This document shows, one piece after another, positions 1,759-33,796 of a stretch of 64,000 nucleotides of DNA. The stretch is from Emiliania huxleyi CCMP1516 (lineage: Eukaryota), in the NCBI RefSeq assembly GCF_000372725.1, contig NW_005201287.1:961081-1025080 (forward strand). The letters are read 5' to 3'. Positions within the stretch are counted from its first letter, which is position 1. The number at the start of each line of letters is the position of its first letter. The position numbers and the translations under genes were made by a program. The notes beneath the pieces are model-generated. The model saw only the letters and a program-made list of their open reading frames with translations, was not told the origin of the DNA and did not search any database.

Positions 1759-4700
1759 CTAGCTCCCCCGACGCAGCACAGGCGGCTTGGTCACCCAAAG
1801 CTGCCCTGCACTATCCCTATCGACCAGCGGAGTGCTCCCGGCGGCCCACAAGTGGCCCGCGTGCCGGCGGTGCGTGTGGACGCTCTGCCAATGGGACTCG
1901 CGCGCAATACCATGCCAGCGACTGCGCGGCACGACAACCGGCGCCCGGGCAAGTAAGCGCGACGCGCTGCCGGGCGCGTAGCCGCCGCCGCGGGCGGCGG
2001 CATTGGCGGCGGCCCCAAAGAGGACGGTGTTGCGAGAGAGTGCGTCGAGCTCGGCGTCCATCTTGTCGAGCCGCACCTTTGACGTCTGCGCGCGCAGCTT
2101 GCTTCTCGGGGTGCGAGGCTTGAACGTGCGGCGACGCGGCGCCGGCGGCCTCCATTCCGGCAGCGTCCTCTGCTCGCGCATCTCGTCGAGCACGGCGCGC
2201 GCCTCGGCGAGCCTGCCCGCCTGACCGGGTGACAACAACAGAGTCAGAGGACTCCTTCATTCGGTGCGCCTCGGGCGAGCCCGGCCCGCCTCGTAGAGCT
2301 CGCTGATCAGGTCCTGCTCCCGAGTCGCGTTTGGCGCGAGCAGCAAGCCTGACGGGAGAGAGATGAGCGGCCCTCGCCCCACGGCCGCTCGGTCTCGGCT
2401 GCCTCTCGGCTGCCTCTCGCTCTCGCGCCGTGAGCGCGGCCCGCCGCGAGCAGCGAGACGGCGTCCTCCACAGCGCCGCTCAGCGTGAAGCCGAGGACGA
2501 GCTCTTGGCCAAACGTCCTCTGCACCTCGGGCGCGAGCCAGCGGCTCGACGCGCTGAAGATGGCGCGGCCCGCCTCGAGCAGCTGCCTGTTTGCGGGCCG
2601 CCCGCCCGACGGCATCACAGCGCCGACCAAGTACTGCACCGCGCCTGACAGACGCCACCGACACCAGTGACTGGGCAAGGCTCCACCTGCGGGTCAGTCT
2701 GCTGCACCGACGCCGTTCTGCTCGGCCGGGTTGGCCGCCGGCAGCAGCCCCGAGCGGACGCCCCACCGGAAGACCTGAGGGGCGTGTCCCGGGACGGTTC
2801 ATGGACGTGTCCTCGGGGCCGAGTAGAGGAGTCCCGCCGGAACGCCTCGAGGGCGAGCGGCGCGTCCGCGTGCAGCTCGCAGCCGCGCAGCAGCGTCATC
2901 AGCCCGACGATGCACGCGAGGTCGGCGCGGTACGCGCGGGTGAGCTCCGCGTACCTAATTAAAATCTTCATAATCATCACCGATTTAATATTATTTAATC
3001 AGGCGCGGGTGGGCTCCGCGTACCCGGTGCGCAGCAGCCCGGCATTGCGGCAAGCGAGCATCACCTACTCGCAGCCTTCTGCTCCTCGATGGAGAGCTGT
3101 CTGTGGAGGGCCTGTGGCACGCGAGCGTCGCCGTCGCGACGTGCGGCGGGTCGAGCACCTATTAAACAATATCAACACTACTCACCTTTTTAAGATTATT
3201 TAATTAGTCGCGACGTGCGGCGGGTCGAGCACTTTCCCGCCCTCCTCCTCGACCTCGTGCAGCAGCGTCACCGCCAACGTTGCGTCCGCCGCGCGCGCGC
3301 ACGCGACGAGCGCCGCAGACAGCAGCTGCCGGTGCTCGTTGACCTGCGTCGCACTCAGCTTCCCGCTGGCGCCGCGCCGCAGCCGAGGAGCGACGCGCGC
3401 GCGCCGGTAGAGGGCGACGGCGTCGGAGGCGGCGCCGCGGGAGCCGTGCGCGCGGATGGCCTGGTCGACGTCCCACCGTCTGCTAATTAGGAGAGAGTGC
3501 GCCAGGGAGAGTCCCCCCCCCGGAGAGCCCCCCCCCCCCCGTTTCTGCGCCCCGTTCTCCGCCGCCGCCAACCCTCCCGGGGAGAGCTAGCTCGCCTCCG
3601 CCTACTCCTAGCCTCGCCTCCGCCTACTCCTAGCCTCGCCTCCGCCTACTCCTAGCCTCGCCTCCGCCTACTCCTAGCCTCGCCTCCGCCGCAGAAGAGA
3701 CGCCCTCGCCGTACAGACGCTCCTCGAAGAGGCGGGCGCCTACGCGTACGCATCGGGAAGGGTCGTGGAGGGTGGCAGCGGGGGCCCGCTCCTTCCCAAG
3801 AGAGGCGGCGGCCGAGGGACGGCTCGATCCGCACGAGACCCGACTCGGCGCTCGCCATCATCAGCCTAAGGGCGCCGAGTCGCGCGAGTGGCGCGGCGAT
3901 GTGCGCGAGGAGGAGTGCGCCGGAGGGGGAGGGAGGGAGAGCCGGGTGAGGGTCCGGCTGAGGACGCGAAGCCCGCGCTCCGATGCAGACTGCCACAGAG
4001 CGAGCGCCTCGTCGCCTCTGCCGGCGAAGACGAGCGCCTCGAGAAAGAGGCACATCGGCCTACAGGAGAAGTCGAGGGGCAGCTCCGAGCACGGCTCCTG
4101 GAGGCGCGTCTCGCGGAGGCGGCTCCCCGGCCTACACCACCACAACCACCGCGCGGGTGACGGCCTGCCTCCCGCGGCCACTTGCAGGGGCAGTCTCCCT
4201 CGCACCGCTGCTGCAGAGGGATGTGTCTAGGAGGTGTCTAGGAGGTGTCTAGGAGGTGTCTAGGAAGTGTCTAGGAGGTGTCTAGGGAGTGTCTCCCTCG
4301 CACCGCTGCTGCAGAGGGATGTGCAGAGTGCGGCACGAGTGCGAGTAGATCTGCAGCGCGGTGCTGACGTCGCCTAGGGCCAGGGCCGGGGCCGAGGTCG
4401 GGCGTCAGGTGAGGAGAGCTGCGACGAAGTGCTGATGTCGCCGCTGATCGCGCAGACGGAGAGGAGCGGGTTGAGGACCTCCGCCGCAGCATCCGCCTCG
4501 GACAACCCTCCCTCCTCGGCGCCGCCCTCCGTTGCCGGGCGCAACTCAGCCGTGTTACCAGCCTCGTCAATACCCTGCTTGCCGCCGCCCCGCGCGCCGC
4601 CCTCCGCGCCGCCCCCGGGCCGAGGCAGGACGGAGAGGCCGCAGTCCATCCGCAGGTGCTCCACCACCTACAGGAGGAGATACGAGCCTCGCGGCAAGGT

Positions 4701-6290: not shown

Positions 6291-8287
6291 TCAGCACGCC
6301 TCTTGCTGTGCTGCGTGCGCGGTCTCGTGCGGCGGCGGCGGCACGACGAGCTGCGGCTCGCCGGGCACCGTGAGTGAGGCGGTGCAGGGCGGCGTGATCG
6401 CCACCAGCGGCGCGGAGTACGGGCTTCCGCCGGGGCCGCCGCTGCTGCGGGGCCCGCTGCTGCGGGGCCCGCTGCTGCGGGGCCCGCTGCCGCACCGGTC
6501 TGTGTTTGCGCGACTGTTGATCACGCGTCCCGCGGACGACCAGTCCATCAGCAAGCAGTAGGTCAGGCCGAAGAGGGCGAGCGGCGCCTGGGCGATGGTC
6601 GTGGCGCCGACGCAGAAGGCCAGCTTGCGAGGCACGGAGGAGGTGGCGAGGTCGGTGAGGGCGAGGGCGCCGACGACGGGCGAGGCGACGGCGTAGAAGC
6701 AGAAGAAGGTTGCTCCGATCGAGAGGAGCGGCTTGCCGAGCGGCACGAAGAGGCACATCGAGCAGATCGAGAGGATGCGGGTCTGCATGTGCGGCAGCAG
6801 CACCCAGAGGATGGCGCCAAAGGCGTCTCGAACCGCCTCGTCGTTGCTGACGGCGTGGGTGACGGCGCCGCTCGCGGCGAGGAGCGCGACGTTGTACGCC
6901 GCCACCAGCACCGACGCGATGCCGATGAGGAGGAAGAAGGCCTTCTTGGCGCCCGGGTCGCGCTTCCCGAGCAGGGTCATCGTGCGGACAGAGACCACCT
7001 GGATCCAGCCCTGCTGCGCGGCGGAGAGGGCCTGCGGACATGGCGTGGACGTGTCATCGACATGTCGTGGACGCGACCCGAGGATCCAGCCGTGCTGTGC
7101 GGCAGGCCTCTAACCCTAACCCTAACCCTAACCCTAGCCCTAGCCCTGCTGCGCGGCGGGCCTGCTCGCACTGCACCCAAATGGCTCCCGCCGCCACTTG
7201 CGCGGTCGAGACGCCCCGCACGTTGGTGAGCGCAACCAGCTGCAGCTCGAAGATGAGCCAGCCCGAAAAGTTCGACGCGATCTGCGGCAGCGTGAGCCGC
7301 GCGAACTCGCACACCTCCCTGCGGCTGAAGAGGGGCGCGTGCTGCTTGCCGCGCGGCAAGAAGAGCGGCAGGAGGCCGAACCACCACGCGAGGCCGCACC
7401 ACACCACGATCCGCGAGGCGCGCACCGTGCTCCACGCGACGGCGGCGCCGAGCACGCCCCACCGCCAGCGGTAGATGAAGGCGTACCTAGGTGAAGGCGT
7501 CAGTGGCCGTTCTTAGTCAGGCGCCGAGCAGGCCCCACCGCCAGCGGCAGAGAGAGGCGCGCGAGCAGAGCACGTCCAGGCCGAGCCCGGTGAGCAGCGA
7601 GTTGAGCGAGGCCTAGGGTTAGGGTTAGGGTTAGGGTTAGGGTCAGGGTTAGCCGAGCCCGGTGAGCAGCGAGTTGAGCGAGGCCGAGCGAGCGTAGCCG
7701 CACGAGACGAAGACGGCTTCGATCTGGATGTCGAGCAGCAGCAGCAGCGCGCCGCCCGCCATGACACGCGTGTACGTCCCCACGGCGGCGGCGATGCTCG
7801 GCTCGACGCCGACGCACCGCAGGACGGGCGCAGAGACAAACTGGAGAGCGCACGAGGGCAGGCAAGAGAGGGCCGCGAGGACGACGGCGCGCCGGAAGTA
7901 GTGCGGTATCCGGTCCCTGCGGCTCGCGCCGATGCACCCGGGCAGCACGTTCCACAGGTAGGCGCTCAGGCCGAGCATCACCATCAGCATCGAAACGTTG
8001 AAGTAGACCCGCCCGTAGCCGAGCGCCGACTGCAGGTGCGCCGAGTCGGGCGTGGAACCCGCAAAGAACATGGTGATGAGAGGCGGTGCGCCCCACTCGA
8101 GGATGGCAGACAGGCAAAGCGGCACGCCCTGGCTGAAGAAGAAGCGCAGCTCGTTGCGAAGGCTGTACGGCGGCTCCTCGGCGCTGCTGCTGGCCGGCTC
8201 GGCCGCGGCGGACTCCTCCGCTTCGGGAAGCATGGTCTCGCGCTGCGTCTCGCGACAGGGGCTGTCGGGCGACAGGAGCTGCGACAT
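6291..8287 (-). CDS. MATE (MatE) family efflux transporter, 3 introns (7613-7684, 7487-7562, 7032-7161)
   Basis: Multiple TM segments; MATE-like motifs LRNELRFFFSQGVP, YAFIYRWRWGVLGAAVA, EFARLTLP...WLIFE, SVRTMTLLGK. The frame is restored by GC-AG introns. Confidence 0.85.
7111..7146. repeat. Interstitial telomeric repeat (CCCTAA/CCCTAG)x6 in a MATE intron
   Basis: taaccctaaccctaaccctaaccctagccctagccc. Confidence 0.95.
7614..7651. repeat. Interstitial telomeric repeat (TTAGGG)x~6 flanked by an identical 34-bp direct repeat (7580-7613, 7652-7685)
   Basis: Visible directly in the sequence. Confidence 0.95.
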
Positions 8288-8964
8288 GATCCGTCTCTGC
8301 CGTCGCGGTCGGACGGTCCTGCTCGGTCGGTCGTGGTCACGGTTCGGGCTCCCTACTCGAGTGAGGCGGGCTCCAACTGTAGGGTGGTCGGACTGTCTAT
8401 TGGGATCGACCCCAGCTATGGGCTCGAGAGTACTGTTGTACGTACTTTTAGCTTACTGGGAGAAAAGAGAGAGGGGGGTTGTGTTCTCTAGGCCCCTAGG
8501 GTTAGGGTTAGCTCTCTCTGTTGTAGGCCAGGTTGAGGAGATTACACGATCCCGGCGTGAGCAGGACTAACTGAGGGATCCGCTCCTGACAGTGGCATGC
8601 ACTGCGCTGCGGCGCGTGCCACTGTCTTTGTTTGAAGTTAAAAGTCGAATCAGAGCGCCGTCGGCCGTCGGCGCTGTCCCTCGTTTTCCTCCCACGGACC
8701 GCCCGTCCGGCACCGCTCGCTCCGGGACGCACGCCGGCGAAGCACCATCAAGCTGCTGTACGGCCCCGGCATCGCCTCCCCTGGCTTAGCTAGACTGAGA
8801 GACCATTGTGCACATGGTTGGTCTCTACAATATATACACTGACACTAAACCTCCCAGAGCTCGTCCCGGTCCGTCACGGCCATCCTCGGCCTCCGGAGGG
8901 CCCCCGACCGCGGCGCGGTGTGGCGGCGTCACAAATCCGACCACAGAGCACCACGAAACCACGA

Positions 8965-31059: not shown

Positions 31060-33381
31060 CTACGCGCCTGCCGCATCCGTCGCAGACGTGATCCTCTTCG
31101 GCGTGATCCTCTCCGTCGCCTCTTCGATGGCGGTGGCGATGTCCGGGTAGGCGGCGCCGCCGTGCTTGCTGTTGTCGAGGCCGGCGTCCTCGACTTCTTT
31201 CGAGATGCGGAGCAAGCCTCCCGCCATGAGGCCCGAGAAGAGGATCGCACTCAGCGCGCCGACCCAGAGGGTGATGAAGACCGTGCCTGCGGGGCAGGGG
31301 CGAGCGTCGGAAGGGAAAGAGAAGAGGGCGCACTTTGACGCGGGAGCGGACCGACGATCTGCGTGGCGAGCAAGAGGCCATCGCCGCCGTAAAAGACGCC
31401 GCACGCCGTGCCAGACTCCGTGTAGGAGTAGTCGCACGTGCAAAAGAAGCCGACGGCGAGGCAGCCCCACAGACCGCACGCGCCGTGGACAGCGAAGGCG
31501 TCGAGCGGGTCGTCGATCTTGAGCCTGCGCATCAAGCACGAGGCGCCGTGGTAGAAGAATGCTCCGATGAAGCCGATGACGACCGACGCCCAGATCTCGA
31601 CGGTCGTGCAGCCGGCGGTGATCGAGACGAGCCCTCCCAGCAGCGAGTTGCAGGTGTGGCCGAGGTCCCACACGCCGGGCGACCCTCCGCAGGAGCCGGG
31701 CGCGAAGCGCTTGAGGAGGATCCCCGTGGTGGCGGCCTAGGGTTAGGGTTAGGGTTAGGGTTAGGGTTAGGGTTAGGGTCAGGGTTAGGAGGATCCCCGT
31801 GGTGGCGGCCTAGGGTTAGGGTTAGGGTTAGGGTTAGGGTTAGGGTTAGGGTTAGGAGGATCCCCGTGGTGGCGGCCTATTAGGGTTAGGGTTAGGGTTA
31901 GGGTTAGGGTTAGGGTTAGGGTTAGGGTTAGGGTTAGGGTTAGGGTTAGGGTTAGGGTTAGGGTTAGGGTTAGGGTTAGGGTCAGGGTATGGGTTAGGGT
32001 TAGGGTTAGGAGGATCCCCGTGGTGGCGGCCGTGGCGGCGGAGAGCGTCGTCGTGACGGCGGCGCGGGCCGCGTCGCGCGCGTAGTTGTGGAGCGCGAGG
32101 GTTGAGCCCGGGTTGAAGCCGTACCAGCCGAACCAGAGCAAAAAGGTGCCCAGCACTTGCAGGGACGCCGACTGGCCGGCGAAGGCGTCTGCGGGGGCGA
32201 CGCGTGCGCGTGAGGGAGGAGGCGGGGCAGCCGCACCGAAGCAGGCGGGTGCGCACGTTCGGGCAGCTCTCCGAATCGGCCCTTGCGAGGTCGGATGATG
32301 AAGGCACCGGTGAAGGCGCAGATGCCTCCCGTCATGTGCACGACGCCGGAGCCCGCAAAGTCGACCATGCCTGCGGACGGGGCGGGGCGGGGCGGGTGAG
32401 GGGAGGGGGCGGTGGCATTGTCTGCTGGAGGGGGGGGGGAGAGGGGCACCAGTGAGCATCGCGTCCTTGTTAAAGGCGGAGAGGAAGCCGTGTTCGTCCC
32501 ACACCCTGCGGCCAGAGAAAAAGGGGTGACCGCTGTTCAGACGTCTGCCACCCCTCCCGGGGTCTGCTCCCCCTCCCCGGGGCTAGCCCCTGGGCTGGGA
32601 GCGTAGTACGCCCGTCGCTGCAGATGCGGAGCGAGGCGAAGGCTGGCAATGGACGCTCCCCGGGGCAGCTGCGCGCGCCAGTGCACCACCGTCGGGTATA
32701 CGAAGCCGACGATGGCGAAGACGTACGCGCAGTAGCCAACCAGCGTGCACCGCTCCGCCACAGCGCCGGACGTGATGGTCGCTGCCGCCGCCGCAAAACA
32801 GTACTGGAAGAAGAAGAAGACGGCGTCGTGCCCGTAGTCCTTTTTGCCGGTCGTGTCGTCGGCTCCGGAGAGGGCAAAGTTGTGGCCGCTGCCGCCGATG
32901 AAGGCGTTCCCGTCCTCGCTCTTGTCATAGGCAAAGCCGAACCCAATGAGGTACCTAACAGCAGCGGGCTGGGCTGAGCGCGCCCGCGAAGGCCCCGCTG
33001 ACACCGCTCCGGCCCTCGGACACCAGACCAGCCCGCCGAAGCACGCGTCCATGACGGACTTGAGAAGGATGTTCTTGACGCTGCGCATGCGTACCGATCC
33101 CGCCGAGAGCAGCGCGAAGCCCGCCTGCATGAGAAAAACTAGAGCCGCGCAAAAGAGCAGATAGAAGGTGTTCGTCTCGCTCTGCGACCGGGTGCACGAG
33201 GCGTGAGTGGGCGCAAAGGGCGGCGCGGCGCGCCAGCTGTCGCCGCCGGGCGGACCTCGTCAGCTTCGAAGCGGACCTCGTCAGCTTCGAGCTGTCCGCG
33301 CAGCGCCGTGGCGCAGGCCGTCAGCGAAGACACGTTGGCCGTGACCTCTGGACCGAAGTTGCAGGCCGAGAGAGGAGTCAT
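31060..33381 (-). CDS. AMT1: Ammonium transporter (AMT1 family), multi-exon
   Basis: Motifs [96 protein letters not shown]. Confidence 0.95.
31714..32031. repeat. Four identical 24-bp exon-derived repeats (AGGAGGATCCCCGTGGTGGCGGCC) separated by three TTAGGG arrays
   Basis: Copies start at 31714, 31787, 31854 and 32008; the spacers are telomeric hexamers. Forms AMT intron 31737-32030. Confidence 0.95.
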
Positions 33382-33796
33382 CTGCAAACAAGGCGGCCAG
33401 TGGATGGCGAAGGTCAAAAGGGACTCGGCGGCAAGTCTCTCGGGTGACGGATCACATTTCAAACTCCGAGCTCCGACATTGTGGTGGCTGGTGGGTGGTT
33501 CCGCCTCGAGTCCACCGACCGCATGCGCACGAACGAGCACTTGGAGGACGAACGAACCCGGGCGGGCGCACGAACCATTCCTCTAGCAAGCATCAGAGGC
33601 TCATTTCAATCCGAAGTACTGACTGACATTCCTCTGACATTCCTCGCATCCGGCACGTACTCGAGTACGCAGAGGCCGCGTCTTCCGCTACCCATACTGA
33701 CCTCATAGAGCTCCCGAACCTCCAATTAATTGTCGCAGACTAAAGGACGGGCGCCCGATCCGTCGGCAAGCCCCGCGTCGCGTCGCCAATACCACC

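What the first reader, a model, noticed from the sequence alone, without database searches (positions are those of the whole stretch)
31714..32031. CRISPR-like repeat/telomere array in AMT: three stacked intron units with AG|GC junctions
Seen: four identical 24-bp exon-derived repeats are separated by TTAGGG arrays of different lengths. On the coding strand each unit (154, 67 and 73 nt) starts GCCGCC and ends in TAG, abutting the next. Retaining the array gives LTLTLT... and then a stop. Inference: either the same site was hit repeatedly or the unit was amplified. It could be removed as one 294-nt intron or recursively through zero-length exons, and partial splicing would give nonsense transcripts of a nitrogen-uptake gene.
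Basis: partly seen in the sequence, partly recalled or inferred. Interest (0 to 1): 0.8.

Follow-up and report, generated by a model that had tools for sequence, protein, structure and literature searches.

The report
Telomere-built intron, stacked three times
In an ammonium-transporter gene of the alga Emiliania huxleyi, a block made of a 24-base copy of the gene plus chromosome-end (telomere) repeats stands three times head to tail, is missing from the messenger RNA seen, and occurs only once in a wild sequence, so it is likely a young intron born from a DNA-break repair scar that later multiplied and may be cut out piece by piece.

Summary
The gene is the E. huxleyi AMT, and removing all 294 nt (GC..AG) gives a protein identical to the database protein. 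One RNA contig shows the clean junction; 3 of 3 DNA runs laid carry the array-side junction. A wild contig holds one unit, identical to unit 3, so unit number varies. A single-unit insert of the same build lies in a MATE gene of this window and is missing from 3 of 3 DNA runs laid (assembler collapse not excluded). Best reading: a staggered break was healed with telomere repeats. The duplicated exon supplies the GC donor and the C-strand repeats supply branch point and AG; the unit then duplicated between its own direct repeats. Stepwise splicing is slightly favoured but untested, and the CRISPR likeness is superficial. My 10 paper searches found no report of introns built from telomere repeats. 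This scan noted single-unit cases and stacked tiny introns before, on other DNA.

The parts
31060..33381 (-). AMT ammonium transporter gene, 8 exons (33381-33256, 33181-33024, 32954-32679, 32505-32450, 32370-32257, 32188-32031, 31736-31352, 31286-31060), 499 aa
   Evidence: Model translates identically to P0001; Pfam PF00909, E 7.5e-113; introns 1-5 seen as RNA joints; intron 7 placed by match to P0001
31737..32030 (-). Intron 6, 294 nt, GC..AG, three stacked units; the only in-register precise excision
   Evidence: clean junction in RNA contig X11 record 9
31877..32030 (-). Unit 1, 154 nt: exon copy plus about 21 telomere repeats with two variants; acceptor end differs from the other units
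31810..31876 (-). Unit 2, 67 nt: exon copy plus pure tract; equals unit 3 minus its variant repeat
31737..31809 (-). Unit 3, 73 nt: identical to the whole insert of the one-unit contig L001
32008..32031 (.). 24-bp repeat copy that holds the first GC donor (32030)
31854..31877 (.). Internal 24-bp copy; AG|GC junction at 31877/31876
31787..31810 (.). Internal 24-bp copy; AG|GC junction at 31810/31809
31714..31737 (.). Last 24-bp copy; 23 nt of it are the start of exon 7
7613..7684 (-). Single-unit telomere insert of the same build in a MATE gene: 72 nt, 34-bp duplication (7580-7613 and 7652-7685), GC..AG; predicted intron
   Evidence: missing from DNA contigs of X2, X3, X5; its splicing was not seen
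7032..7161 (-). Older, decayed telomere-containing intron in the same MATE gene, G-strand in sense, 130 nt, GC..AG; predicted
   Evidence: Removal restores colinearity with homologs; contigs of X2 and X3 break at it, which fits its presence there
6291..8287 (-). MATE transporter gene carrying the two comparison inserts
   Evidence: Pfam PF01554, E 7.8e-11; 11 homologs

Best explanation
This is a 294-nt GC-AG intron of the E. huxleyi AMT gene, made of three head-to-tail units, that likely began as one repair scar (telomere repeats probably added by telomerase at a staggered break), likely multiplied by tandem duplication between its own 24-bp direct repeats, and is probably spliced out unit by unit. 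Shown: the anatomy; the clean junction in RNA-derived sequence; an allele with one unit. Inferred step 1: a break with 24-nt 3' overhangs; the G-strand end is extended with TTAGGG; its end anneals to the other overhang by a 3-nt microhomology (the AGG that opens the repeat); fill-in duplicates 24 bp. Inferred step 2: the scar is tolerated because the C-rich strand is transcribed. The duplicated exon gives a G|GC donor, every repeat gives a CTAAC branch-like motif, and the last repeat plus the duplicated G gives the AG. Inferred step 3: slippage or unequal exchange between the direct repeats adds or removes whole units, and the tracts then drift in length. Inferred step 4: each unit is a complete intron of native size, and removing one regenerates the same donor, so stepwise removal in any order ends in the same mRNA. 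My odds: spliced intron 0.93, unit amplification 0.7, telomerase as source 0.65, stepwise splicing for a real share of transcripts 0.55.
For: Precise removal gives a protein identical to P0001. 10 of the 15 listed members of its cluster (16 in all), P0001 included, read cleanly across the site; the other 5 begin downstream of it; none has the Leu-Thr run. RNA contig X11 record 9 joins 32008 to the next exon with one copy, and it alone accounts for the depth of that bin (74.7 x 32/50 = 47.8). DNA runs X1, X2, X3 (3 of 3 laid) have array-side contigs. Their copy-to-tract junction depth is 74, 497 and 469 against neighbouring single-copy contigs of 53, 160-230 and 190-292. L001 has one unit identical to unit 3. 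Native AMT introns are 65-173 nt with branch-like motifs 21-27 nt from the 3' end in 5 of 6; each unit offers one at 22 or 25 nt. The intron holds only three AG, one per unit end, and no GT. GC donors are 56-65% in this species (PMC4028052, passages). The same build recurs in the MATE gene and appears polymorphic. Two more duplication scars (26 and 33 bp) with non-telomeric filler lie in the window, which points to a general repair route.
Against: No empty AMT allele was found, so the age of the first insertion is open; P0126 and P0128 fit partly spliced RNA better than empty DNA. The clean RNA contig comes from a metatranscriptome whose allele is unknown, so splicing of the three-unit allele itself is not shown. 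No splicing intermediate was seen (1 RNA run, contigs only). The G-strand start has no bases in register with the telomere repeat at either locus, whereas 75-80% of mammalian interstitial inserts have at least one (mouse, rat, human; PMC2246262, passages); selection for the AG would force this, but that is my inference. The donor is weak: 2 of 9 matches to a recalled U1 consensus against 4-5 for native introns 1-5. Contig depth is summed and is not a copy number, as the tool warns. L001 could be a contraction, so it does not give direction. The MATE duplication (34 bp) exceeds the 31-letter word size of the index, so collapse could mimic the empty allele.
Confidence: 0.62

Rival explanations
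1. Same origin, but the 294 nt are removed in one step and the internal AG|GC junctions are skipped or only give noise.
For: Only the final junction was seen in RNA. Intron 3 of this gene is 173 nt, so longer introns are handled.
Against: It must pass over two acceptors, one identical in its last 30 nt to the one used, and 35 branch-like motifs lie in the intron. The internal donors match the recalled U1 consensus slightly better than the first (3 against 2 of 9).
Confidence: 0.4
2. The same site was broken and refilled three times, or one repair event cycled three times between repeat addition and re-annealing.
For: The tracts differ in length and variants, and unit 1 has a different start on the G-strand. 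New Daphnia introns show repeated staggered breaks (PMC4202315, passages).
Against: All units share the same 24-bp boundaries and the same end register. Unit 2 is unit 3 minus one repeat. The one-unit allele equals unit 3.
Confidence: 0.22
3. The filler was not made by telomerase at the break but copied or captured from a telomeric template (fragment capture, templated fill-in, or a retroelement enzyme copying a telomeric RNA), or it is a small mobile intron.
For: No priming bases in register at the G-strand start. AMT unit 3 and the MATE insert both carry a TCAGGG variant as next-to-last repeat, with 42 of 43 nt alike.
Against: Duplication lengths differ (24, 34) and tract lengths differ. No terminal inverted repeats or element-specific sequence are present. 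Scars with unrelated fillers have similar duplication lengths. Two cases cannot establish the shared variant.
Confidence: 0.3
4. The three-unit form is an assembly expansion of a one-unit intron.
For: L001, the only full-length independent copy, has one unit. No independent record spans three units.
Against: The units differ in sequence. Contigs of X1, X2 and X3 end exactly at the 30-mer shared by internal and outer junctions, and junction depth is 1.4 to about 3 times single copy.
Confidence: 0.07

Closest known systems
Intron gain during repair of staggered double-strand breaks (Daphnia pulex; PMC4202315 passages; reviewed in PMC3443670 passages)
   Same: Insert flanked by a direct repeat of the exon; allele-level polymorphism; secondary repeats inside young introns.
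   Different: Daphnia exon-shared repeats are 4-12 bp and that paper has no word starting 'telomer'. Here the duplication is 24-34 bp, the filler is telomere repeat, and whole units are stacked.
Short interstitial telomeric sequences inserted at breaks, attributed to telomerase (PMC2246262 passages)
   Same: TTAGGG tract at an internal site; a minority carry a target duplication (4.6% in rodents, 16% in primates).
   Different: Not described as creating introns in the passages read. Most have priming bases in register, which these lack. Here the tract sits in a coding exon and carries branch-like motifs and the acceptor.
Intron gain by tandem genomic duplication of an AGGT-containing exon segment (PMC3443670 passages)
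   Same: The duplicated exon provides the donor, and excision is precise.
   Different: The exon reads CG|GC and has no AG of its own; the acceptor's A comes from the filler.
Recursive splicing at zero-length exons (S. pombe case, 10.1101/226894 passages; Drosophila and vertebrate ratchet points recalled)
   Same: A 3' splice site directly abuts a 5' splice site inside an intron.
   Different: Here the junctions are AG|GC, arise by unit duplication, vary between alleles and are not shown to be used.
Stwintrons of fungi (search listing and abstract starts only)
   Same: Complex intron removed by consecutive U2 reactions.
   Different: In stwintrons an inner intron splits a splice signal and forces an order. 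Here units abut and no signal is split.
Introners (PMC9860276, PMC12130899; term look-ups only)
   Same: Introns made by insertion with a co-opted splice site in a target duplication.
   Different: No terminal inverted repeats, no short fixed duplication, no element-specific sequence. Neither main text contains 'telomer' or 'huxleyi'.

Membership tests
Spliceosomal (U2, GC-AG) intron | GY donor and AG acceptor whose use restores the reading frame | tested here: met
   GC at 32030, AG ending 31737; product identical to P0001
Spliceosomal (U2, GC-AG) intron | Present in DNA, absent from RNA | tested here: met
   Array-side junction in 3 of 3 DNA runs and L001; clean junction in RNA X11. DNA and RNA are not from the same strain.
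Spliceosomal (U2, GC-AG) intron | Branch point used to form a lariat | not testable with these tools
   Branch-like motifs at native distance by pattern only
Break-repair intron gain | Direct repeat of target sequence flanking a filler | tested here: met
   24 bp at AMT, 34 bp at MATE
Break-repair intron gain | Empty allele or orthologue without the insert | tested here: inconclusive
   AMT: none among 4 DNA sources. MATE: missing in 3 of 3 runs, collapse possible.
Telomerase-made interstitial telomeric insert | Tract matches the organism's telomere repeat | tested here: met
   TTAGGG reported for G. huxleyi (10.1101/2024.05.26.595999 passage)
Telomerase-made interstitial telomeric insert | Bases at the break's 3' end in register with the repeat | tested here: not met
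   0 nt at the G-strand start at both loci. The feature is statistical, and the splice filter may remove it.
Recursive splicing (zero-length exon) | Abutting AG and donor inside the intron | tested here: met
   Two AG|GC junctions
Recursive splicing (zero-length exon) | Intermediates or lariats at the internal sites | tested here: inconclusive
   None in the one RNA run laid, contigs only, array not covered
Introner | Family of similar element-specific introns with terminal repeats or a fixed short duplication | tested here: not met
   Duplications of 24 and 34 bp, filler is simple repeat; window only, no genome held
CRISPR array | Unique foreign spacers between repeats in a prokaryote | tested here: not met
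   Spacers are telomere tracts, the repeat is exon sequence of a eukaryotic gene, and the region folds no better than shuffles (z 0.9)

The most novel reading that the evidence does not exclude
Telomerase is an active intron-making enzyme in coccolithophores. Break-healing with TTAGGG yields ready-made introns because the C-strand repeat is a branch point and GC donors are accepted. The flanking duplications let these introns multiply into zero-exon stacks that are spliced recursively, or delete themselves precisely, and this is still segregating genome-wide in E. huxleyi.
Probability: 0.35. Interest if true: 0.88.

Novelty: new variant of a known kind. Interest (0 to 1): 0.68.

Why it matters
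Where new introns get their sequence is a long-standing question, and few sources are identified. Here the source is recognisable, two or three such introns lie in one 64-kb window, and alleles differ in presence and unit number. The species is cultured and has haploid strains and long-read RNA data (10.1101/2024.05.26.595999 passages), so birth, stacking and stepwise splicing can all be tested. It may also bear on the pervasive interstitial telomere tracts reported in another coccolithophore (PMC13518057 passages), and on splicing load in a nitrogen-uptake gene.

Tried and rejected
No whole genome is held, so no census was possible. Reads were laid on the 5' flank and array edge only, so the inside of the array was not examined with reads; 5 of the 19 listed runs were laid (X1, X2, X3, X5, X11). 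I tested P0126 and P0128 as empty genomic alleles and rejected this: their start and length (203, 202 aa) match RNA with introns 5 and 7 retained, not empty DNA (319 aa). P0122 and P0123 (182 aa) match retention of the array, but equally a contig that starts there; a hint only. Junction-motif scans of viral and prokaryote collections gave 4 + 4 loci; 5 of the 8 were inspected and none showed a flanking duplication (in L006 the tract runs to the end); the other 3 lie in one large viral record and were not examined. RNA fold of the intron showed no structure beyond shuffles. RNA cover of the MATE inserts was thin and rows at repeats were dropped by the tool, so their splicing was not seen. Searches had coordinate slips, corrected. 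Paper searches found no report of telomere-built introns. The 2013 E. huxleyi genome paper did not appear in these listings and neither it nor its supplements were seen; they may mention telomeric repeats in introns. No supplements of any paper were read.

Full report
Observation. Four identical 24-nt copies lie at 31714, 31787, 31854 and 32008. On the - strand the units are 154, 67 and 73 nt; each begins GCCGCC and ends TAG; together they are 294 nt. Chance expectation for one such repeat pair is about 6e-7. The tracts differ from each other in length and in variant repeats.

Gene and organism. The exon after the array is 100% identical to an Emiliania huxleyi ammonium transporter, P0001. An eight-exon model that removes 32030-31737 translates to exactly P0001, 499 aa. 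GC at 32030 and the AG ending at 31737 are the only in-register precise ends; the intron has three AG, one per unit end, and no GT. GC donors make up 56-65% of junctions in this species and intron retention is common (PMC4028052, passages), so the GC donor is ordinary here.

Is it spliced? Of the 15 listed cluster members (16 in all), 10, including P0001, read cleanly across the site, 5 start downstream, and none has the Leu-Thr run. In RNA run X11 an 837-nt contig joins 32008 to the next exon with one copy, and it alone explains the depth of that bin. Introns 1-5 are seen as joints, four GT and one GC. All 3 DNA runs laid carry the array-side junction. Limits: one RNA run, contigs only, allele unknown. 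P0126 and P0128 fit RNA that retains introns 5 and 7 but not this one, so they are not evidence for an empty allele.

Is the stack real and does it vary? The single metagenome hit, L001, is about 99% identical to the gene and holds one unit, identical to unit 3 including its variant repeat. In X1, X2 and X3, contigs end exactly at the 30-mer shared by inner and outer junctions. The copy-to-tract junction has depth 74, 497 and 469 against 53, 160-230 and 190-292 for neighbouring contigs. The tool warns that such depth is not a copy number, so this supports multi-unit alleles without proving them. No independent record spans three units. L001 may be ancestral or a contraction.

A class, not a one-off. 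A MATE gene in the same window has a 72-nt insert of the same build: a 34-bp duplication, a G|GC donor, a C-strand tract and AG. Retention stops the protein at 212 aa, and removal restores colinearity with the 11 homologs. Contigs of X2, X3 and X5 pass from 7584 to 7657 with consecutive record positions, so the insert is missing in 3 of 3. Because 34 exceeds the 31-letter word size, collapse is possible; junction contigs did survive at AMT in X2 and X3. An older decayed insert at 7032-7161 appears shared. Two further scars with 26- and 33-bp duplications hold an AT-rich and an 11-bp-repeat filler.

Mechanism. The anatomy fits a break with 3' overhangs, TTAGGG added to one overhang, annealing through the 3-nt AGG that opens the repeat (1 nt at MATE), and fill-in (inferred; end-joining through terminal microhomology is recalled knowledge). 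The C-strand repeat contains CTAAC every 6 nt, so each unit offers a branch-like motif 22 or 25 nt from its end; native introns have one at 21-27 nt in 5 of 6. Against plain telomerase priming, no base is in register at the G-strand start, while most mammalian inserts have at least one (PMC2246262, passages). An AG acceptor in this orientation needs a genomic C there, so selection could explain it (inferred). A shared next-to-last TCAGGG in AMT unit 3 and MATE is unexplained. Identical boundaries, unit 2 being unit 3 minus one repeat, and L001 favour duplication between direct repeats over three hits.

Splicing path. Each unit has native intron size, and removing unit 1 recreates the same donor, so stepwise removal in any order gives the same mRNA. 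One-step removal must skip two acceptors. I put stepwise use at 0.55; it is untested. Incomplete removal changes the protein from residue 305: 377 aa with three units kept, 410-439 with two, 558-587 with one.

Known work. The parts are known separately: break-repair introns in Daphnia with 4-12 bp repeats (PMC4202315, passages), telomerase-attributed interstitial inserts, tandem-duplication introns (PMC3443670, passages), and zero-length exons in S. pombe (10.1101/226894, passages). Pervasive interstitial TTAGGG is reported in Calcidiscus without a link to introns in the passages seen (PMC13518057). Term look-ups in two Introner papers found no 'telomer'. Look-ups in PMC6410037, PMC6726248, PMC6387519 and two preprints showed no telomere-built introns in the passages returned. 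Ten searches found none either; the library lacks most subscription papers. Earlier notes of this scan describe single-unit telomere introns in uncultured marine protists and stacked tiny introns in Rozella; I did not check them.

Verdict. Real, and very likely a spliced intron. It is a new variant of break-repair intron gain with a telomeric filler and unit stacking, in a cultured model alga. Recursion and telomerase's role remain to be shown. Interest 0.68.

Noticed in passing
window 3133-3232: 26-bp duplication around a 48-nt very AT-rich filler in a long reading frame on the - strand; precise GT..AG excision of 74 nt is possible. The filler may be organellar DNA (not tested).
   Followed up: partly
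window 4186-4323: 33-40-bp duplication flanking an 11-bp tandem-repeat filler; no in-register precise splice found.
   Followed up: partly
window 7487-7571: A MATE intron that holds a decayed copy of the downstream exon, probably another duplication-born intron; my model leaves a 3-residue gap against homologs, so the donor may be misplaced.
   Followed up: partly
window 8382-8700: Very high-copy repeat upstream of MATE (summed depth hundreds of times single copy in 3 DNA runs) with a short telomere motif at 8497; structurally variable between runs.
   Followed up: no
window 33431-33480 and L001 2350-2517: Sequence just upstream of the AMT start has no cover in the 4 runs laid, and L001 has different sequence there: possible promoter rearrangement.
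   Followed up: no
window 31780 and 7643: The same TCAGGG variant stands as next-to-last repeat in two independent inserts; unexplained.
   Followed up: partly
window 33250-33290: 21-bp tandem duplication at the donor of AMT intron 1; cluster members vary in length (497-522 aa), cause not checked.
   Followed up: no
P0002: A 94%-identical relative also starts at the first GTG after the array position, as expected if it carries the insert or its contig begins there.
   Followed up: partly
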